Made by a program: the position numbers and the translations under genes. The notes under the pieces were generated by a model. It was given only the letters and a program-made list of their open reading frames with translations, ran no database searches and was not told the DNA's origin. From the IMG/VR virus record IMGVR_UViG_3300002026_000087: DNA of 36,476 nt; one strand, written 5' to 3'. Origin of the DNA: a virus. Every line of letters begins with the position of its first letter. Positions within the stretch are counted from its first letter, which is position 1. This document shows positions 1 to 36,476 of this stretch, in pieces.

Positions 1-91
1 CGAATCCGACAGGGGGGGTATGTCGAATCCGACACCATATAATAAGAATACATTAAATAAGAAAAGAAAGAAGAAGGAAGAATATATATGT
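1..91. repeat. Terminal direct repeat: nt 1-91 are identical to nt 36386-36476 (overlap of a circular or circularly permuted genome)
   Basis: Base-by-base comparison of both window ends. An ORF reads in phase across the join. Confidence 0.95.
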
Positions 92-478
92 CAACACGAT
101 CCAATTCTTAACGACATAACTGCGCAGAAGGTAATGGACCTGTGGAATTCAATTGTTGATGAAAAAGGAACACTTTCTAATATTAAAGAACTTAATGCTA
201 ATAGGCATGAACTAATTAAAGAGCTGTCTATAACAAGATTACCTACTATTGATGATTGGAGGACATATTTTTATAGCATATATCAATCTAAATTTCTTTT
301 AGGCCAGGCCAATGGAACGTGGAAAGCAAATTTTGAGTGGGTTCTTAATTCAAGTAATGCTTTAAAAATAATAGAGGGACAATATTTCGACAAACAGAAA
401 AAAATGGAGTCAAATTCAGAGATTGAGAATTTTAGGCGAAACATATTAGGCCTAGGAAATAAAAAGGGGGTTATATGA
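2..478 (+). CDS. Replication initiator / replisome-organizer-like protein, 3' part (same gene as 35919..36476; wraps the circular junction; about 314 aa in total)
   Basis: Position 20 equals 36405 on the circle, in the same phase as ATG 35919, with no stop between. The C-terminal segment GQANGTWKANFEWVLNSSNALKIIEGQY resembles the conserved C-terminal domain of phage replication/organizer proteins. Its TGA overlaps the next ATG (ATGA). Confidence 0.6.
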   Translation, partial: ESDRGGMSNPTPYNKNTLNKKRKKKEEYICQHDPILNDITAQKVMDLWNSIVDEKGTLSNIKELNANRHELIKELSITRLPTIDDWRTYFYSIYQSKFLLGQANGTWKANFEWVLNSSNALKIIEGQYFDKQKKMESNSEIENFRRNILGLGNKKGVI

Positions 479-1005
479 ATTACGGGGAATTAATGGCATA
501 CAACTTAGCTGATTATTATGAAAAAAAATTGGGAGATGTACGCTTAGAATATGATGGGAAGTTTTTTTCCCAATTTACAGAGCTAGAATTAAAAACAATT
601 TATATCAAGTGCATATCTACATTTAGGTTTTATCCAACAATAGCAGAATTAACGGAACTATTACAACCAAAAGAAGATTCTAAAGATCAAGCAAATGAAA
701 TGACAGGTTCAATTCTCCAAGCAGTTAGAGATTACGGGAGACATCAAGCGCTTAAAGTAAAAATGCTATTAGGACCCATAGCATGGTTTGCAATAGAAAG
801 CTTTGGAGGGTGGGATGTTATATGTAATGTCCCTGAAGATCAGCTAGCAACATCAAGAGCACAGCTAAGAGACATGTGTAAATCAGCGTTGACAATAAAA
901 AGTAGGGTAGCTATAAAAGACAATCTTTTAGAGTATCAAAAACATGGAATGCGAAAGCTTGGATTTTGCCAAGCAACTAATTATATCGAAAACAAAGGAG
1001 AATAG
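475..1005 (+). CDS. Putative replicative-helicase loader (SPP1 G39P-like), 176 aa
   Basis: ATGA overlap with the initiator gene and an AAGGGGG SD. FRFYPTIAELTELL resembles the F-P-P-[ST]-[IV]-A-E-[IL] signature I associate with the G39P loader family. It sits directly after the initiator. Confidence 0.5.
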   Translation: MNYGELMAYNLADYYEKKLGDVRLEYDGKFFSQFTELELKTIYIKCISTFRFYPTIAELTELLQPKEDSKDQANEMTGSILQAVRDYGRHQALKVKMLLGPIAWFAIESFGGWDVICNVPEDQLATSRAQLRDMCKSALTIKSRVAIKDNLLEYQKHGMRKLGFCQATNYIENKGE

Positions 1006-27972: not shown

Positions 27973-29190
27973 TTATAACTCCTTGTATGGAATCCGTTTC
28001 CCGTCATTTATTATGTAGGCCTCTTTATTCGAATACTTTTGCCAACGTTCAATTATTACTTGGCAATAATGAGGGTCTATTTCCATTCCAAAGCAGCGAC
28101 GGTTAGTTTTTTCGCAGGCGATGAGAGTTGAACCAGAACCAAGGTAAAGATCGATCACGCTGGAAGGATTATAGTCATTTAAAATATTTGCAAACAGACC
28201 CACTGGCTTTTGTGTTGGGTGGACTCTTTTAGTTAACTCGTCTTTGCGATTGCCTTCTCTAGTCATACCTGCCCATGTAAATTTGTAAACCTTAACCGTT
28301 TTCTTTTCAATGTTTGTCCATGCGATTTCTGCATCTGAAAAATCATTGCCAAACGGAGTATCTTTGTACCAGACCAGCCAATGTGGGGAGGATGGTAATT
28401 TCTCAGAGAAATGGTTCACTCCCCAAATAATTTGTTTATCAGCAATTCCTAAAAGAAATGTCGGATCGAATGGGCGATCATCTCCAATTATGGGTTTATA
28501 GATTCCGCATTTTACTTTCCCGGCAAACCCCACCACCCCTTTCCTATTCCCTCCAATATTCCCGTCTACTTTAACAGCATTCATTCCATAAGGAGGATCG
28601 GTAAACAACATATCCGCTTTCTCCCCTCCCATTAACTTCTCAACATCATCAACCAACGAACTATCCCCACAAAGCAAACGATGAGCTCCTAACTCAATAA
28701 GCATACCTTTTGTTATTATACACTCTGATTCATTTGCAATATCGGGTATCTCGTCTTCGATTAGTTCTTTATTTGGATCAATCTCGGGGAGAATCTCAAT
28801 ATTTAATTCTTCGCTAGTAAAACCCCACTCTAATAAATCACTTTCCTTAAACTCCAAATTCAACTTTTGAAAATCCCACTCTCCAGCAACCGCCTTATTC
28901 ATCAAAATAATAACAGCTTCTTCCTGCTTCGGAGTCAATCCCCTATCCGGTACATACACATCAACACTAGTCACACCCTCTTTCTTCAGCTGCATCCATC
29001 TAGCATGACCACTCAATATAGTCCCATCTAAATTAATGTTAATCGGTTGTGCCATCCCAATGTTGTTAAATGACCTCTCTAGCTCCTCTAGCTTATCATC
29101 TCTGATAATCCTAGGGTTCTTCTCATACGGGATCAATTTATCTATATCCCAGACCTCTGAGTGCCACTGTATTCTTTTAGTCACGATCAT
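27973..29190 (-). CDS. ParB-like-nuclease-domain / DNA (N6-adenine or N4-cytosine) methyltransferase fusion
   Basis: ParB/Srx-type N-terminus (EKNPRII...ILSGHARW). Motif IV is FTDPPYG. Motif I is DLYLGSGST, preceded by HPTQKP; this beta-class order is as expected. Confidence 0.85.
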   Translation of the reverse strand: MIVTKRIQWHSEVWDIDKLIPYEKNPRIIRDDKLEELERSFNNIGMAQPININLDGTILSGHARWMQLKKEGVTSVDVYVPDRGLTPKQEEAVIILMNKAVAGEWDFQKLNLEFKESDLLEWGFTSEELNIEILPEIDPNKELIEDEIPDIANESECIITKGMLIELGAHRLLCGDSSLVDDVEKLMGGEKADMLFTDPPYGMNAVKVDGNIGGNRKGVVGFAGKVKCGIYKPIIGDDRPFDPTFLLGIADKQIIWGVNHFSEKLPSSPHWLVWYKDTPFGNDFSDAEIAWTNIEKKTVKVYKFTWAGMTREGNRKDELTKRVHPTQKPVGLFANILNDYNPSSVIDLYLGSGSTLIACEKTNRRCFGMEIDPHYCQVIIERWQKYSNKEAYIINDGKRIPYKEL

Positions 29191-30489: not shown

Positions 30490-30492
30490 ACT

Positions 30493-30548
30493 CTCCTGCA
30501 AGTGACTTGATACGCAATTGCAGGAGTTACACGGCAAACGTGCTTTTT
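30493..30548 (+). terminator. Terminator candidate: 9-bp hairpin CTCCTGCAA/TTGCAGGAG, then a short CACG/CGTG hairpin plus T5
   Basis: Arms at 30493-30501 and 30518-30526. The second hairpin spans 30530-30542, followed by CTTTTT. Confidence 0.5.
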
Positions 30549-30564
30549 ACCACTTTGCCATGTA

Positions 30565-30635
30565 ATTATTCCCATTATTCCCGTATATCCCGTATATCCC
30601 GTAAATAATTCCCATTTAATCATAAACAATTCCCC
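30565..30635. repeat. Tandem 9-bp repeats ATTATTCCC x2 and GTATATCCC x2, followed by two longer units each ending in TTCCC(C)
   Basis: Read directly. TCCC recurs at 30570, 30579, 30588, 30597, 30610 and 30632. The tract is intergenic. Confidence 0.85.
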
Positions 30636-30699
30636 TTTAGTCGTAAGTAAATTCATAAACACATCACGTTATATTACGACGTTATGCGAAACAAATATG

Positions 30700-30753: not shown

Positions 30754-31296
30754 ATGAAAGACTTAAATGTAACACTTGAAAAACTTATCGCTCTTTATAG
30801 GAAAAACGAGGAAGTAGACGACGAAATCCTGGACTTACTTGAAGAAGTTAAAGCACAGTTGGCCCCCTTATTAAGACAAGCAATAAATGCAGGGGTTTTA
30901 TCTATTGATATCAATCACAAGAAATACCTAAAAGGTAAATATAAAATGGTTTATTTTGATATTGCAGATATATACGACAATGGGAAATTAGTACTTACAA
31001 TAGACTCAGATGAAGACGCTACTATGTATGCTTTAAATAAAGACTTTAAATTTATGATTAAACAAAAAATGCCAACACTATTCGAAACCATCTCTAACCA
31101 ACGCGGATACTTAACTTGGGATGATTTAAGAGCACTTAGTAACTGTATTCCTGACTGCCCGATCATCCTATCTTTTAGAGGTAAAGTTATCATAAAGGTT
31201 CGTTGTTATGCTAAACAGGCCTTTAAATGTATCGAGATAGTAGAGAATACTGGGATTCTTATTTGTAGGGATATCAGTGTTATTAACAAGGAGTAA
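30754..31296 (+). CDS. Hypothetical cytoplasmic protein, 180 aa (first gene of the accessory cassette)
   Basis: Strong promoter and SD. No motif recognised. Confidence 0.65.
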   Translation: MKDLNVTLEKLIALYRKNEEVDDEILDLLEEVKAQLAPLLRQAINAGVLSIDINHKKYLKGKYKMVYFDIADIYDNGKLVLTIDSDEDATMYALNKDFKFMIKQKMPTLFETISNQRGYLTWDDLRALSNCIPDCPIILSFRGKVIIKVRCYAKQAFKCIEIVENTGILICRDISVINKE

Positions 31297-31842: not shown

Positions 31843-32898
31843 TTATGCTTTCAATAGGTTGGAAAGTTTTTCCTCAACATCTTTTATTGATGGAGTTTCT
31901 TTCCATTCACTTGTTTTGTAATATTTGGTATCCATTCTCCACTTTATTTCTTTCTGAAAGTTACATTTTTTGCATAGAACTTGTAGATTTTTTTTATCCC
32001 AAAATTCCGAGTAATTCATTGCTGAATCAAAAACATCTTTTTTTGTATGTTCGGGCTTTACTATTTTCGTAAATTCATCATAAATTATTGAAAATTTAAC
32101 TATATGATCTACTTCTAACCTCCCGCCAACTTTTCCGCATTGTTTGCATGTGTATTTATCTCTCTGCAATATTTCTTTTATTAATTTTTTATTTTTCTCT
32201 GAATCTCTTATCATCGAAGCTATTGTCTTCCTGCCATCTTTATAGTTAGGATTATTATTTGACGAATATCTTACCTTCCTGAAATTTTTTCTACATTCAT
32301 CTGAGCAGCATGTTTTCTTGTGTAGTATGTAGGTATGGAAAATTCCCTCACAATATTTACATTTTACATCTTGATAGTTTTTCTTCCTACATTTCAGACA
32401 TATGCTGTTCTTTGCTCTAACTCTCCCATTTTTAGAAAAGTCATCTCCACATTCGGTGCAAGCATAAATCCTTTCTCTTTTCTCGTATGGGATCTGTTTA
32501 TCTCCAGATATCTTTAATGGTTTTATTTGTTTTGCTTTGTTTTCTTTTAACCTATTTTCTTTTTTTATTAATATACATTTTTGGCAATTAATATTTTTGC
32601 CATAACTAATAAATTTCCCACCACAAGTAGTGCAAACTTTATCCCCTTTGCCTTTATTATTAGATTTATTGGCACATTCATCTGAACAGTATTTTCTTTT
32701 TTTATTATATGACTTATATTCTTTATTGCATCTCAGACATGCTTTAATACCAGCATTTTTAAAGTTAGGATTATTGCTTCCAATTAATATTTGTTGAAAA
32801 TATAACTTTCGGCATTCCATTGAACAACATTTTCTTTTTTCAAAATGAGATGGTTTTGTTTTAAAATTGTTTTCACATATAATACATTTTTTATGCAT
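31843..32898 (-). CDS. HNH endonuclease with five N-terminal CxxC...C(xx/xxx)C zinc-ribbon modules
   Basis: C-terminal CKQCG...LEVDHIVKF...NLQVLCKKCNFQKE is an HNH motif. Modules such as CLRCNKEYKSYNKKRKYCSDEC are repeated. NNPN(F/Y)K motifs are present. Confidence 0.8.
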   Translation of the reverse strand: MHKKCIICENNFKTKPSHFEKRKCCSMECRKLYFQQILIGSNNPNFKNAGIKACLRCNKEYKSYNKKRKYCSDECANKSNNKGKGDKVCTTCGGKFISYGKNINCQKCILIKKENRLKENKAKQIKPLKISGDKQIPYEKRERIYACTECGDDFSKNGRVRAKNSICLKCRKKNYQDVKCKYCEGIFHTYILHKKTCCSDECRKNFRKVRYSSNNNPNYKDGRKTIASMIRDSEKNKKLIKEILQRDKYTCKQCGKVGGRLEVDHIVKFSIIYDEFTKIVKPEHTKKDVFDSAMNYSEFWDKKNLQVLCKKCNFQKEIKWRMDTKYYKTSEWKETPSIKDVEEKLSNLLKA

Positions 32899-35388: not shown

Positions 35389-35628
35389 TTATTTTGACTT
35401 TTTCTTTACAGTTTGTTTAGGGTTTTTATCGTGATTTTTATCAGTTTTCTGTAATTTTTCAGCTAAATCTAGCATCTTTGATTCATTATTAAAAAGTAAT
35501 ACATGCATTCCATTACTCAGATTTCCCCTCCCGAGATTTAAAATTAATTGTCTATATCTTGAGGGAATTCTTACCTTGATATCTGTTTTTGTATCGTAAT
35601 CTATTAAGGGAGGTTGTTTGTAATTCAT
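35389..35628 (-). CDS. Putative ribbon-helix-helix regulator with a basic tail, 79 aa
   Basis: DIKVRIPSRYRQLILNLGRGNLSNGMHVLL fits the strand-helix-helix pattern of Arc/Mnt. It is the first gene of the leftward operon, next to operator-like repeats. Confidence 0.45.
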   Translation of the reverse strand: MNYKQPPLIDYDTKTDIKVRIPSRYRQLILNLGRGNLSNGMHVLLFNNESKMLDLAEKLQKTDKNHDKNPKQTVKKKSK

Positions 35629-35666
35629 AAAGTATTCCTTTGTTAATTATAATTATTTACTCAAGT

Positions 35667-35691
35667 AAAGTGTACAGAAAGTGTACACTTT
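35667..35691. promoter_or_regulatory. Operator candidate: AAAGTGTACA repeated with an 11-bp period (35667-35676, 35678-35687); it also forms the inverted repeat AAAGTGTACA/TGTACACTTT
   Basis: Read directly. It lies between the leftward promoter candidate and the RHH-like gene. Confidence 0.5.
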
Positions 35692-35706
35692 AATGGTGGA
35701 TGAAAG

Positions 35707-35734
35707 ACTATAATACATTAATTTTAAAAATCAA
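35707..35734 (-). promoter_or_regulatory. Leftward early promoter candidate TTGATT-16-TATAGT
   Basis: On the minus strand, -35 is at 35734-35729 and -10 at 35712-35707. Confidence 0.4.
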
Positions 35735-35807
35735 ACTTTTATTCAATACTCGGGCCAATTAGTCAACTAACTATGAACAATTATTCACTTTTAATTCATA
35801 ATTTATT

Positions 35808-35837
35808 TTGACAGATTAATATTTGGGGCCGTATTCT
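35808..35837 (+). promoter_or_regulatory. Rightward early promoter candidate TTGACA-18-TATTCT
   Basis: -35 at 35808-35813 and -10 at 35832-35837, about 80 nt upstream of the initiator ATG. Confidence 0.45.
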
Positions 35838-35918
35838 AATAATTCACATGACTTATATGGAAGGTCATACGGGGTTCTAAAACAAATAACGCAACTACTA
35901 ACAGGTGATAATAATATT

Positions 35919-36476
35919 ATGACGGGGGATAGTCGTATGCAAAATATTGACGGTTTTTGGGGATTCAAGAAAAGAGAAGTCGAGATTTGTAATGGGAAGG
36001 AAACTCATGCTTTAGTATTGAACTATATCATAGCATTGCTAAAGTCATCACAACATCAAGATATAAATAAATTCGACAATAAATATTACGCCAGGCTTAG
36101 TTATTCAAGAATAGCAAAACGTTTCCACTGGATGGGAACTGAAAAAATAAGACACATATTAAGGTATTTAATTAAATGCAACGTATTGGTTAAAAAACAT
36201 GAAATGATAAGAGGAACTGAGTACGTAAACAATTACTATACGCTGAGCAATGACTTATATAAAGAATATACGAATAGTGATGAACTGAATACCTGTATCG
36301 AATTCGATCAGGGGGGGGTCGAATCCGACCTACCTAACGGCGAATCCGACAGGGGGGGGATGTCGAATCCGACAGGGGGGTATGTCGAATCCGACAGGGG
36401 GGGTATGTCGAATCCGACACCATATAATAAGAATACATTAAATAAGAAAAGAAAGAAGAAGGAAGAATATATATGT
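35919..36476 (+). CDS. Replication initiator / replisome-organizer-like protein, 5' part (runs off the window end; continues at 2..478)
   Basis: Open frame from ATG 35919 (alternative ATG 35937 with a GGGGGA SD) to the window end. It carries a winged-helix-like segment, YARLSYSRIAKRFHWMGTEKIRHILRYLIKCNVLVKK. It is missing from the track because no stop occurs in the window. Confidence 0.6.
   Translation, partial: MTGDSRMQNIDGFWGFKKREVEICNGKETHALVLNYIIALLKSSQHQDINKFDNKYYARLSYSRIAKRFHWMGTEKIRHILRYLIKCNVLVKKHEMIRGTEYVNNYYTLSNDLYKEYTNSDELNTCIEFDQGGVESDLPNGESDRGGMSNPTGGYVESDRGGMSNPTPYNKNTLNKKRKKKEEYIC
36303..36420 (+). repeat. Iteron-like array: CGAATCCGAC x5 (36320, 36341, 36364, 36386, 36409) plus one degenerate copy, most followed by A+G6-8
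   Basis: Read directly. Spacings are 21, 23, 22 and 23 bp. The array lies inside the initiator ORF and is translated in two different phases. Confidence 0.9.
36386..36476. repeat. Second copy of the 91-bp terminal overlap
   Basis: Identical to nt 1-91. Confidence 0.95.

What the first reader, a model, noticed from the sequence alone, without database searches (positions are those of the whole stretch)
36303..36420. Lambda-style origin candidate: iterons embedded in the linker of the initiator gene and conserved as DNA, not as peptide
Seen: CGAATCCGAC occurs five times on the plus strand, at 36320, 36341, 36364, 36386 and 36409. Spacings are 21, 23, 22 and 23 bp, about two helical turns. Four copies form the 12-mer GTCGAATCCGAC, whose ends make a GTCG/CGAC dyad. 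A degenerate copy (TTCGATCA+G8) lies at 36303. Because the period is not a multiple of 3, identical DNA units are translated in two phases (VESD / ESDRGG versus MSNPTGG). The conserved entity is therefore the nucleotide repeat. The array sits between the winged-helix-like N-terminal part and the conserved C-terminal part of the putative initiator. It is followed at once by a purine/AT-rich stretch (36421-36470, equal to 36-85). Established: the phage lambda origin has this same architecture, with four iterons plus an AT-rich region inside the linker-coding part of gene O. Inference: this is the replication origin, bound by the protein it encodes.
Basis: partly seen in the sequence, partly recalled or inferred. 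Interest (0 to 1): 0.7.

Follow-up and report, generated by a model that had tools for sequence, protein, structure and literature searches.

The report
Phage replication origin inside initiator gene
A run of six ~22-bp protein-binding repeats followed by an easily melted A/T-rich stretch lies inside the flexible-linker-coding part of a phage's replication initiator gene, which is the arrangement known from phage lambda; the reading is well supported but this is an ordinary example of a known design in an unnamed protein family.

Summary
CGAATCCGAC occurs exactly at 36320, 36341, 36364, 36386 and 36409 (spacings 21/23/22/23). A sixth, degenerate palindromic unit (ATCGAATTCGAT) lies at 36297. 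All G-runs of 6 or more in the genome lie in this array, and a 78% A/T, 78% purine tract follows it.

The window is a circular contig (91-nt terminal overlap). The array lies in one 308-aa ORF (35937..36476, continuing at 92..478) that matches PHROG 345, 'replication initiation O-like'. AlphaFold gives a winged-helix N-terminal domain (10-118), a disordered linker (120-181) encoded by the array and A/T tract, and a helical C-terminal domain (190-275).

In the eleven related genes read, the same gene position carries repeats, ten of them mostly 20-24 bp apart and most read in mixed frames, followed by DNA more A/T-rich than the gene average. A syntenic sister phage (75%-identical downstream partner) has a different N-terminal domain and a different iteron. 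A natural chimera joins a true lambda-O N-terminal domain to this C-terminal domain with lambda-like iterons.

The origin interpretation is supported (about 0.8) but untested experimentally. It is a new member of a known kind (lambda O/ori, SPP1 gp38/oriL, pSK41 Rep), not a lambda O homologue. Copy number (3 versus 5 exact copies) differs between assemblies. Interest is modest.

The parts
35937..36476 (+). 5' part of the initiator gene. The ATG at 35937 is the start used by the JGI gene call for P0001; an upstream in-frame ATG at 35919 is also possible. The ORF runs off the window end and continues at 92..478.
   Evidence: Translation across the junction gives one 308-aa (or 314-aa) ORF. It matches PHROG 345 'replication initiation O-like' at E=1.7e-20. 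P0001 starts at MQNIDG.
35964..36290 (+). Coding region for the N-terminal winged-helix-type domain (residues ~10-118), the presumed iteron-binding domain.
   Evidence: AlphaFold pLDDT is above 90 with H-H-b-H-H-b-b topology. Top PDB fold matches are all winged-helix DNA binders with TM 0.55-0.64 normalised to the target. The profile hits winged-helix regulators in PDB sequences, best E=5.7e-5.
36297..36308 (.). Unit 0: a degenerate iteron, the perfect palindrome ATCGAATTCGAT, followed by CA and G8 (36311-36318).
   Evidence: family D3.
36318..36329 (.). Unit 1: GTCGAATCCGAC. Its spacer CTACCTAACGG has no G-run.
36339..36359 (.). Unit 2: GGCGAATCCGAC, then A and G8.
36362..36380 (.). Unit 3: GTCGAATCCGAC, then A and G6. 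This is one of the two units absent from variant P0001.
36384..36403 (.). Unit 4: GTCGAATCCGAC, then A and G7. The window's terminal overlap starts at 36386, so the exact 10-mer of this unit is duplicated at window 1-10 and its G7 at 12-18.
36407..36418 (.). Unit 5: GTCGAATCCGAC, the last iteron, abutting the A/T-rich tract (duplicated at window 22-33).
36419..36470 (.). A/T-rich tract, purine-rich on the coding strand (duplicated at window 34-85). It is the candidate DNA-unwinding element and encodes the Lys-rich end of the linker (NKNTLNKKRKKKEEY).
   Evidence: The tract is 78% A/T and 78% purine, the 99th percentile of 50-nt windows in the gene. It is among the ten least stable 60-mers of the genome. 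Lambda has the same feature after its iterons.
1..91 (+). Terminal overlap: an exact duplicate of 36386-36476 (units 4 and 5 plus the A/T tract). It marks a circular or circularly permuted genome of 36,385 bp.
92..478 (+). 3' part of the initiator gene. The conserved helical C-terminal domain (residues ~190-275) is encoded at about 119-376. The stop TGA is at 476-478.
   Evidence: AlphaFold pLDDT is above 90. This domain is shared by about 2,700 representative proteins and is fused to many different winged-helix N-terminal domains, including Phage_rep_O.
475..1005 (+). Conserved partner gene whose start overlaps the initiator stop (ATGA). It sits in the position of lambda P, and its function is unknown.
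   Evidence: It is 43%, 40% and 28% identical to the genes immediately downstream of the initiator in L016, L020 and L018, and 75-88% identical in sister phages. It matches phrog_10105, of unknown function. The model is all-helical with no PDB fold match.
35629..35918 (.). Divergent A/T-rich control region between the leftward operon (79-aa ORF, AAA_24/Sak4-like gene) and the initiator operon. It contains the palindrome TAAAGTGTACA-N5-TGTACACTTTA at 35666-35692. Transcription from here would run through the array.

Best explanation
The array is the phage's theta-type replication origin, built on the lambda plan.

Proposed mechanism:
1. Dimers of the initiator's winged-helix N-terminal domain bind the six dyad-symmetric units (GTCGAATCCGAC and variants). 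The units lie about two helical turns apart, so all are on one face of the DNA.
2. The resulting nucleoprotein complex strains the adjacent 50-bp A/T-rich, purine-asymmetric tract, which melts.
3. The initiator's conserved C-terminal domain then recruits the host replicative helicase and replisome, probably together with the co-translated downstream partner protein. The phage shows no helicase, primase or polymerase of its own among the replication-module proteins searched.

The origin DNA doubles as coding sequence for a disordered linker whose amino-acid sequence is unconstrained. That is why identical DNA units can be read in different frames, and why only frame-preserving pairs of units (22+23 = 45 bp) are gained or lost.

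What is shown: the anatomy, the domain structure, the family-wide conservation of the architecture, and the change of iteron together with the N-terminal domain. What is inferred: binding, melting, helicase recruitment and the role of the partner.
For: Anatomy:
- Six units are spaced 21/21/23/22/23 bp, each a 12-bp near-palindrome. The array is the top tandem repeat of the genome.
- The A/T-rich tract following it is in the 99th percentile within the gene and among the ten least stable 60-mers of the genome.

Protein:
- PHROG 345 'replication initiation O-like', E=1.7e-20.
- The AlphaFold model has a winged-helix domain at 10-118, a linker at 120-181 with pLDDT below 50 that coincides with the array plus A/T tract, and a C-terminal domain at 190-275.
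- Fold matches are to winged-helix DNA binders and, over the full length, to phage replication initiators, DnaD-like proteins and replisome organisers.

Comparative evidence:
- In L015, L016, L018, L019, L020, L021, L023, L024 and L026, and weakly in L014, the related genes carry 2-6 units at codons ~111-169. Spacing is mostly 20-24 bp and the following DNA is more A/T-rich than the gene average.
- Repeat k-mers cover 11-15% of these genes against 0.6-2.8% of the flanking DNA in six of the seven loci tested.
- Arrays with a 22-bp period are read in three frames.
- The sister phage has the same gene order and a 75%-identical partner, but a different N-terminal domain and a different iteron, AAAAGCGGAAATGCAT x3.
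- The chimera P0023 has a lambda-O N-terminal domain (E=3.7e-32) joined to this C-terminal domain, with lambda-like dyad iterons and an A/T tract in its linker.

Precedents:
- Lambda ori measured on J02459 and described in PMC7466680.
- SPP1 oriL within gene 38 (PMC6316719).
- pSK41 Rep boxes located centrally within rep, with the ori encoding a dispensable linker (PMC5703833).

Context:
- The gene sits in a replication module with SSB and an AAA_24/Sak4-like protein. No helicase, primase or polymerase was detected among the replication-module ORFs searched; most structural-region ORFs were not searched.
Against: - There is no experimental evidence of binding or initiation.
- The A/T tract is not the single least stable region of the genome. 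Several intergenic stretches, including 35643-35760 just upstream, are as unstable or more so.
- GC skew is uninformative because it simply follows the coding strand.
- No close relative with the same N-terminal domain and readable array DNA was found, so conservation of this particular iteron could not be tested directly. The resemblance to L015's unit rests mostly on the shared CAG7T run plus a CGAA core.
- Copy number is uncertain (3 or 5 exact copies), and the contig ends lie in the array.
- The partner protein has no recognisable fold, so the helicase-loading step is conjecture.
Confidence: 0.8

Rival explanations
1. The repeats are genuine initiator-binding sites but are not where replication starts. 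They would serve autoregulation, copy-number control by handcuffing, or fork arrest (as proposed for SPP1 oriR). Unwinding would begin in a different A/T-rich region, such as the divergent intergenic region 35629-35918 or 1227-1330.
For: Several intergenic stretches are as unstable as the tract after the array, or more so: 35643 and 1227 are the least stable 100-mers. In SPP1, gp38 binds a second origin-like site (PMC6316719; PMC3485210 abstract).
Against: No copy of the iteron occurs anywhere else in the genome within two mismatches in a cluster, so the initiator has no other obvious landing site. An A/T-rich tract directly abuts the array in the window and most relatives and in lambda. In the characterised analogues (lambda, SPP1 oriL, pSK41), the in-gene array is the origin.
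Confidence: 0.1
2. The array is only a slippage-generated repeat in a disordered linker and has no DNA-level function. It would be tolerated because the linker sequence does not matter.
For: The linker is predicted to be disordered. Copy number differs between assemblies. Homopolymer G-runs are slippage-prone.
Against: Neutral slippage does not explain the 12-bp dyad symmetry. It does not explain a spacing near 21-23 bp recurring in independent lineages with unrelated unit sequences, the constant A/T-rich tract on the 3' side, or the change of unit together with the N-terminal domain. The units are exact, although an unconstrained linker would let neutral DNA decay.
Confidence: 0.04
3. The array, or part of it, is an assembly artefact or marks the physical genome end (a packaging site or direct terminal repeat), because the contig starts and ends inside it.
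For: The 91-nt terminal overlap begins exactly at a unit boundary. One contig of the sister phage (L025) starts inside its array and two others (L026, L027) start about 85-100 nt upstream of it. The G-run lengths that distinguish units 2-4 are the kind of difference that sequencing errors produce.
Against: An independent gene call (P0001) spans the array intact, with at least three exact units plus the degenerate one. The ORF stays open through every G-run in both versions. In the 35,035-bp and 10,146-bp contigs of the sister phage, the initiator gene is intact and internal. Terminase genes lie about 10 kb away. Contig breaks at tandem repeats are the expected behaviour of assemblers. At most the copy number is in doubt, not the array's existence.
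Confidence: 0.03

Closest known systems
Phage lambda O protein / ori-lambda (and lambdoid or Stx phages)
   Same: - The iterons are dyad-symmetric and contain G-tracts. Lambda's are spaced 20/24/23 bp; these are 21-23 bp.
- They lie in the middle of the initiator gene: codons 117-145 of 299 in lambda by the record's annotation, 121-161 of 308 here.
- They encode the linker between an N-terminal DNA-binding domain and a C-terminal recruiting domain.
- They are followed on the same side by an A/T-rich tract that is purine-rich on the coding strand: 70%/74% in lambda, 78%/78% here.
- A partner gene lies immediately downstream (P in lambda).
- Copy number varies in pairs: lambda has 4 and Stx phages have 6, adding 13 aa. 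Here it is 3+1 versus 5+1 units, adding 15 aa.

Sources.
   Different: - There is no detectable sequence homology to lambda O (hhalign probability 0.2%).
- There is no hit to PF04492 or TIGR01610, whereas lambda O hits TIGR01610 at 5.4e-39.
- The iteron sequence is different.
- The partner is unrelated to lambda P in any search and has no known fold.
- The C-terminal domain is a different, unnamed family. That family does occur fused to true lambda-O N-terminal domains in other elements (P0023).
pSK41 Rep (RepA_N family plasmid initiators)
   Same: The three-part plan has almost the same proportions. The N-terminal domain (~120 aa) binds four Rep boxes located centrally within the rep gene. 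The central segment (121-199) is encoded by the ori and acts as a dispensable linker. The C-terminal domain recruits a host replication protein (PMC5703833). A chain titled 'N-terminal domain of DNA binding protein' (4pql), which I recall to be a RepA_N-type plasmid initiator domain, is among the fold matches (rank 8).
   Different: There is no Pfam RepA_N hit. The fold match is weak (E=0.03) and no better than matches to generic winged-helix regulators. pSK41 is a plasmid of Firmicutes, whereas this is a phage of unknown host. The C-terminal domain is different.
Bacillus phage SPP1 gp38 / oriL (replisome organiser)
   Same: The origin consists of direct repeats plus an A/T-rich unwinding element positioned within the initiator's own gene. 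The initiator is followed by a loader gene (PMC6316719).
   Different: SPP1 encodes its own helicase loader (gp39) and DnaB-type helicase (gp40), and has a second origin (oriR). No helicase was found here among the proteins searched. No sequence relationship was tested or seen.
PHROG 345 'replication initiation O-like' and related PHROGs (10469 DnaD-like helicase loader, 19658, 5810)
   Same: The window protein matches PHROG 345 over residues 61-288 at E=1.7e-20. Its C-terminal domain matches the other PHROGs.
   Different: These are annotation clusters without a described origin. No Pfam or NCBIfam model covers either domain of the window protein.

Membership tests
Lambda-type origin architecture (functional class: origin embedded in the initiator gene) | Three or more direct repeats (iterons) with internal dyad symmetry | tested here: met
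   There are five exact and one degenerate unit. The 12-mer GTCGAATCCGAC is symmetric at 5 of 6 pairs, and unit 0 (ATCGAATTCGAT) is a perfect palindrome.
Lambda-type origin architecture (functional class: origin embedded in the initiator gene) | Iterons phased at about two helical turns | tested here: met
   Spacings are 21/21/23/22/23 bp here and 20/24/23 bp in lambda, measured on J02459.
Lambda-type origin architecture (functional class: origin embedded in the initiator gene) | The array lies inside the initiator ORF, in the segment encoding the inter-domain linker | tested here: met
   The array occupies codons 121-161 of 308. AlphaFold predicts a disordered linker at 120-181 between two confident domains.
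Lambda-type origin architecture (functional class: origin embedded in the initiator gene) | An A/T-rich unwinding element adjoins the last iteron | tested here: met
   36419-36470 is 78% A/T, the 99th percentile within the gene and among the ten least stable 60-mers of the genome. It is not the unique minimum.
Lambda-type origin architecture (functional class: origin embedded in the initiator gene) | The initiator's N-terminal domain binds the iterons, and replication starts there | not testable with these tools
   The only evidence is indirect: the iteron sequence changes with the N-terminal domain type across relatives.
Lambda O protein family (Pfam PF04492 Phage_rep_O / NCBIfam TIGR01610 phage_O_Nterm) | Significant match of the N-terminal domain to the family model | tested here: not met
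   There is no Pfam hit at E<=0.1 and no NCBIfam hit. Lambda O scores 5.4e-39 as a positive control. The hhalign family profile against lambda O gives probability 0.2%.
RepA_N plasmid initiators (Pfam PF06970) | Match to the RepA_N N-terminal domain model | tested here: not met
   There is no Pfam hit. The only link is a weak fold resemblance to 4pql, E=0.03.
DnaD-like / phage replisome organiser proteins (PF07261, PF09524 and relatives) | Match to DnaD-domain or Phg_2220_C models | tested here: inconclusive
   The window protein itself has no Pfam hit. However, a family profile retrieves many DnaD-domain and Phg_2220_C phage proteins at E~1e-28 to 1e-33. One of the 63 aligned relatives matches DnaD_N. 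BFVD fold hits include 'DnaD' and 'Replisome organizer'.
PHROG 345 'replication initiation O-like' | Significant profile match over most of the protein | tested here: met
   E=1.7e-20, residues 61-288 against profile positions 69-293 of 297.

The most novel reading that the evidence does not exclude
The G6-G8 homopolymer runs, which are confined to this array and all lie on the non-template strand of an A/T-rich genome, might be more than spacers or contact points. Two readings are not excluded.

(a) They could act as slippage-prone switches. A change of one G converts the full-length initiator into a truncated protein consisting of the DNA-binding domain plus a short tail: the alternative frames stop at about 36335 or just after the array. 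Such a protein would compete at the origin and give heritable, phase-variable control of replication.

(b) They could form G-quadruplex or R-loop structures when the operon is transcribed, helping to open the origin. This would be a structural counterpart of lambda's 'transcriptional activation'.

A more sober version: the unnamed C-terminal domain plus the fold-less partner protein form a previously undescribed helicase-recruitment module that is widespread in phages, prophages and integrative conjugative elements (about 2,700 representative proteins).
Probability: 0.08. Interest if true: 0.6.

Novelty: new member of a known kind. Interest (0 to 1): 0.3.

Why it matters
This gives a confident, testable origin assignment for an uncultured phage whose initiator has no Pfam or NCBIfam model. 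It also shows that the origin-in-the-linker design is a recurrent property of a large, unnamed, modular initiator family. In that family a constant C-terminal domain is joined to interchangeable winged-helix N-terminal domains, each with its own iterons. Two practical consequences follow. Scanning the linker-coding segment of such genes for repeats about 22 bp apart could locate origins in many metagenomic phages. And these arrays are places where assemblies break and copy number is unreliable. It does not change how phage replication is understood.

Tried and rejected
- GenBank phages: blastn with the region found nothing. tblastn found only three weak C-terminal matches.
- The search for related loci found no confirmed relative with the protein in viral contigs, with alignment A2 in viral and genome contigs, or with the N-terminal domain in metagenome contigs. 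Alignments A1 and A5 were too diverse for pattern derivation.
- A DNA pattern of two iterons in viral contigs gave 13 loci. Twelve are acidic low-complexity coding repeats (DESD-type) and so chance matches. L013 has two GGGGTACGAATCCGACAGG units upstream of terminase genes, which is a different context.
- The iteron-plus-G-run pattern in metagenome contigs gave 0 hits. P0001's own contig was not on record, so the 3-versus-5 copy question could not be settled.
- GC skew as an origin indicator was rejected because it tracks the coding strand.
- There is no DnaA-box cluster.
- There are no tRNA or Rfam matches, which excludes a tRNA-like reading of TCGAATCC.
- The partner protein has no Pfam or NCBIfam hit. 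Its PHROG is of unknown function. A confident all-helical model has no PDB fold match, all E>5.
- The similarity between the window iteron and L015's is real but rests mainly on the CAG7T run, so it is treated as suggestive only.
- Weaver et al. 2009 (PMC2652615) was not available. PMC5703833 was used instead.
Full report
OBSERVATION

The region was read directly and searched.
- CGAATCCGAC is exact on the + strand at 36320, 36341, 36364, 36386 and 36409, giving spacings of 21, 23, 22 and 23 bp.
- Four copies are preceded by GT and give GTCGAATCCGAC, which is symmetric at five of six base pairs.
- The 'degenerate copy' is a perfect 12-bp palindrome, ATCGAATTCGAT, at 36297-36308. It lies in register 21 bp upstream, so there are six units in all.
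- Tandem Repeats Finder scores this array 144, the highest in the window; the next best is 64.
- All four G-runs of 6 or more in the genome are in the array.
- The 50 nt after the last unit are 78% A/T and 78% purine. That is the 99th percentile of 50-nt windows in the gene and among the ten least stable 60-mers of the genome, although it is not the unique minimum.

GENOME CONTEXT

The first 91 nt of the window equal the last 91 nt. The contig therefore represents a circular or circularly permuted genome of 36,385 bp, and the hits at positions 1 and 24 are the same units as 36386 and 36409.

One ORF runs from ATG 35937 (or 35919) through the array and across the junction to a stop at 476-478, giving 308 or 314 aa. 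It sits at the head of a rightward operon:
- the initiator;
- an overlapping 176-aa gene (475-1005);
- a small ORF;
- SSB (1397-1837).

This operon diverges from a leftward operon that includes an AAA_24/Sak4-like protein and an HNH endonuclease. No helicase, primase or polymerase was detected among the replication-module proteins searched (most structural-region ORFs were not searched), so the phage presumably uses the host replisome, as lambda does.

THE PROTEIN

- No Pfam or NCBIfam model matches the protein. PHROG 345, 'replication initiation O-like', matches residues 61-288 at E=1.7e-20, and several other replication-initiator PHROGs match the C-terminal part.
- An exhaustive HMMER search found 2,734 representative relatives. 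Most share only the C-terminal domain.
- An AlphaFold model built on 63 relatives (mean pLDDT 79.7) has three parts. The N-terminal domain (10-118) has pLDDT above 90 and a winged-helix topology. The linker (120-181) has pLDDT below 50. The helical C-terminal domain (190-275) has pLDDT above 90. The linker coincides with the codons supplied by the array (121-161) and the A/T tract (162-178).
- PDB fold matches of the N-terminal domain are all winged-helix DNA binders: YodB, TFE-alpha, ArsR/SmtB, MarR, PadR and a plasmid 'DNA binding protein' N-terminal domain (4pql). TM-scores normalised to the target are 0.55-0.64 and E-values are 0.012 or weaker.
- A sequence profile also hits winged-helix regulators, with 2d1h at E=5.7e-5.
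- Against predicted viral structures, the whole two-domain protein matches phage replication initiators, DnaD-like proteins and replisome organisers, down to E=2e-9.

COMPARATIVE TEST: DNA OR PEPTIDE?

Distant relatives showed short repeated peptides in their linkers, so their DNA was fetched.

| Locus | Protein | Units | Unit sequence | Spacing (bp) |
|---|---|---|---|---|
| L018 | P0031 | 6 | ACAAAAATGTCTAATCGAATAG | 22 |
| L019 | P0009 | 5 | GATTTGTGAAAAACAACAAATG | 22 |
| L020 | P0005 | 6 in register (4 match the strict core) | ATCAGATGGGTCTAATAGAACC | 22 |
| L015 | P0046 | 3 | GCAGGGGGGGTGCCCGAAACG | 21 |
| L016 | P0004 | 4 | GAGGTACAAAATTTATACTCCG | 33/45/24 |
| L021 | P0115 | 2 | TACAAAATTGTCAGACG | 21 |
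| L023 | P0023 | 3 | WWWWAGAGTCA dyads | 20/24 |
| L024 | P0057 | 3 | TGGYCAARWTGRCCAG dyads | 111/23 |
| L026 | sister phage | 3 | AAAAGCGGAAATGCAT | 22 |
| L014 | P0002 | 2 | GAATCGCT | 22 |

- All arrays start at codons 111-148 and end at codons 133-169.
- The next 50 nt are more A/T-rich than the gene average in every locus: 66-88% A/T, between the 72nd and 100th percentile within the gene.
- Repeat k-mers cover 11-15% of these genes against 0.6-2.8% of the flanking DNA in six of the seven loci tested.
- In eight of the eleven relatives, and in lambda, the same DNA unit is read in two or three frames.

The conserved entity is therefore the nucleotide repeat and its phasing, not a peptide.

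CHANGE OF ITERON WITH THE N-TERMINAL DOMAIN

- A sister phage has contigs of up to 35,035 bp, the same gene order, and a partner protein 75% identical to the window's. Its initiator (P0275) is about 57% identical in the C-terminal domain by my count over the BLASTP alignment, but its N-terminal domain is barely alignable (about 20%) and of a different subtype. Its iteron is unrelated (AAAAGCGGAAATGCAT) and is read as KRKCIS / KAEMHF / KSGNAS.
- Conversely, L015 has one of the N-terminal domains most similar to the window's (35%). Its unit has a G7 run and a CGAA core in the same order as the window's. This similarity scores 28 against 8-15 for the other loci, but it is dominated by the G-run, so it is only suggestive.
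- Across relatives, the same C-terminal domain is fused to Phage_rep_O, HTH_36, HTH_24, MarR, Rep3_N, DnaD_N and GntR-type N-terminal domains.
- P0023 has a true lambda-O N-terminal domain (E=3.7e-32 against lambda O) joined to this C-terminal domain. It sits in a lambdoid prophage with NinB, YbcO and a DnaC/IstB-like loader. Its linker carries dyad iterons followed by ACACACAAAAGACAATATTAAAG. This links the family directly to the lambda example.

MEASURED COMPARISON WITH LAMBDA

On J02459 the four annotated 18-bp iterons start at 39034, 39054, 39078 and 39101, spaced 20/24/23 bp. They lie in gene O (38686-39585) at codons 117-145 of 299; the table, which uses a shorter core motif, gives 117-142. 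They contain G-tracts and are followed by ACACAAAAGACACTATTACAAAAGAAAAAAGAAAAG, which is 70% A/T and 74% purine.

The literature supports the same picture.
[quoted passage not shown] O contacts the G-tracks. Stx phages have six iterons against lambda's four, which adds 13 residues to O (PMC7466680).
- SPP1 oriL consists of direct repeats plus an A/T-rich unwinding element within gene 38 (PMC6316719).
- pSK41 Rep binds four Rep boxes located centrally within rep, and the ori encodes a dispensable linker at residues 121-199 (PMC5703833).

MEMBERSHIP VERSUS MECHANISM

The window protein is not a detectable lambda O homologue. hhalign gives probability 0.2%. It has no PF04492 or TIGR01610 hit, whereas lambda O scores 5.4e-39 on TIGR01610. 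It is not a Pfam RepA_N or DnaD protein either. It works like lambda O but belongs to an unnamed family.

COPY NUMBER

P0001, from a 36,340-bp JGI contig, is identical to the window protein except that it lacks GGYVESDRGGMSNPT. That is 45 nt, or units 3 and 4. Only the pair (22+23 bp) preserves the reading frame. The G6/G7/G8 run lengths keep the ORF open in both versions.

Contigs of the sister phage begin inside or just before their array, and the window's own ends lie in the array. Assemblers break here, and the true copy number (3 or 5 exact units) is unresolved. Attempts to recover P0001's contig failed.

THE PARTNER GENE

The gene at 475-1005 overlaps the initiator stop. It is conserved downstream of related initiators at 28-43% identity in distant relatives and 75-88% in sister phages. 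Its model is confident and all-helical (pLDDT about 80) but has no PDB fold match. Its O-P-like position suggests a role in helicase recruitment, but that is inference only.

RIVAL READINGS AND NEGATIVE CHECKS

- GC skew follows the coding strand and says nothing about the origin.
- There is no DnaA-box cluster.
- There are no tRNA or Rfam matches.
- The same iteron pair in viral contigs is otherwise found only in acidic coding repeats, apart from two units upstream of terminase genes in L013.
- A purely peptide or slippage origin, an assembly artefact, and a packaging terminus are each contradicted by the comparative pattern, by P0001, and by the intact internal gene in the sister phage's long contigs.
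- The main live rival is that the array binds the initiator for regulation while unwinding starts in a nearby intergenic A/T-rich region.

VERDICT

This is a new member of a known kind: an origin embedded in the linker-coding segment of its initiator gene. The initiator belongs to an uncharacterised modular family in which this design is recurrent. Interest is modest (0.3).

Noticed in passing
window 1-91 and 36386-36476: There is an exact 91-nt terminal overlap, so the contig is a circular or circularly permuted genome of 36,385 bp. The overlap begins exactly at an iteron boundary. The contig is in NCBI WGS project JFJP01.
   Followed up: partly
window 36364-36408 (units 3 and 4): A JGI gene product (P0001, from a 36,340-bp contig) lacks exactly these 45 nt (15 aa) and is otherwise identical. 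This is either iteron copy-number polymorphism or assembly ambiguity. Only a two-unit change keeps the reading frame.
   Followed up: partly
window 35666-35692: A perfect 11-bp inverted repeat, TAAAGTGTACA-N5-TGTACACTTTA, also reads as the direct repeat AAAGTGTACA x2. It lies in the divergent A/T-rich control region between the two early operons and looks like an operator for a repressor or Cro-type protein. The adjacent 79-aa ORF (35389-35628, minus strand) has no family match.
   Followed up: no
window 30565-30650: A cluster of 9-bp repeats (ATTATTCCC x2, TCCCGTATA x3) and a 21-bp repeat (TAAATAATTCCCATTTAATCA x2.3) lies in an intergenic region. It sits between a terminator-like hairpin (30492-30527) and a promoter-like site upstream of the gene at 30754. 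This may be a second protein-binding array of unknown function.
   Followed up: no
window 475-1005: The gene overlapping the initiator stop is conserved next to related initiators and carries an invariant FPTIAEL-like motif. It is confidently predicted as all-helical but has no Pfam, NCBIfam or PDB fold relative. It is a candidate for a new helicase-recruitment partner.
   Followed up: partly
L023 3001-4583 (ENA ERZ25067548, 1.3-Mb contig): This is a natural chimeric initiator: a true lambda-O-type N-terminal domain (PF04492) fused to the window-type C-terminal domain. It has lambda-like iterons in its linker and is followed by a DnaC/IstB-like loader in a lambdoid prophage with NinB and YbcO.
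   Followed up: partly
L024 3001-4275 (ENA ERZ27332935): A branch of the family carries an extra C-terminal DnaA_N domain (PF11638). It sits in an element with an integrase and Tra genes, so it looks like an integrative conjugative element. It has TGGYCAARWTGRCCAG dyads in the linker-coding region.
   Followed up: no
L025 1-60; L026 95-165; L027 80-150: The sister phage (partner 75% identical) has a different N-terminal domain and a different iteron (AAAAGCGGAAATGCAT x3). One short contig (L025) starts inside the array and two others (L026, L027) start about 85-100 nt upstream of it, so these arrays are recurrent assembly breakpoints.
   Followed up: yes
L013 2690-2790 (IMGVR_UViG_3300027586_001512): An unrelated 54% GC viral contig has two GGGGTACGAATCCGACAGG units plus AAATCCGACAGGCGCA and AGATCCGACAGGCGCA repeats in the intergenic region upstream of its small and large terminase genes. 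The core is the same as the window iteron, but the context is different (possibly a packaging or regulatory site, or chance).
   Followed up: partly
window 27973-29190 (minus strand) and 31843-32898 (minus strand): A ParB-like N-terminal domain is fused to a DNA methyltransferase (phrog_498, E=3.8e-79). A 351-aa HNH endonuclease lies inside the early or replication gene block.
   Followed up: no
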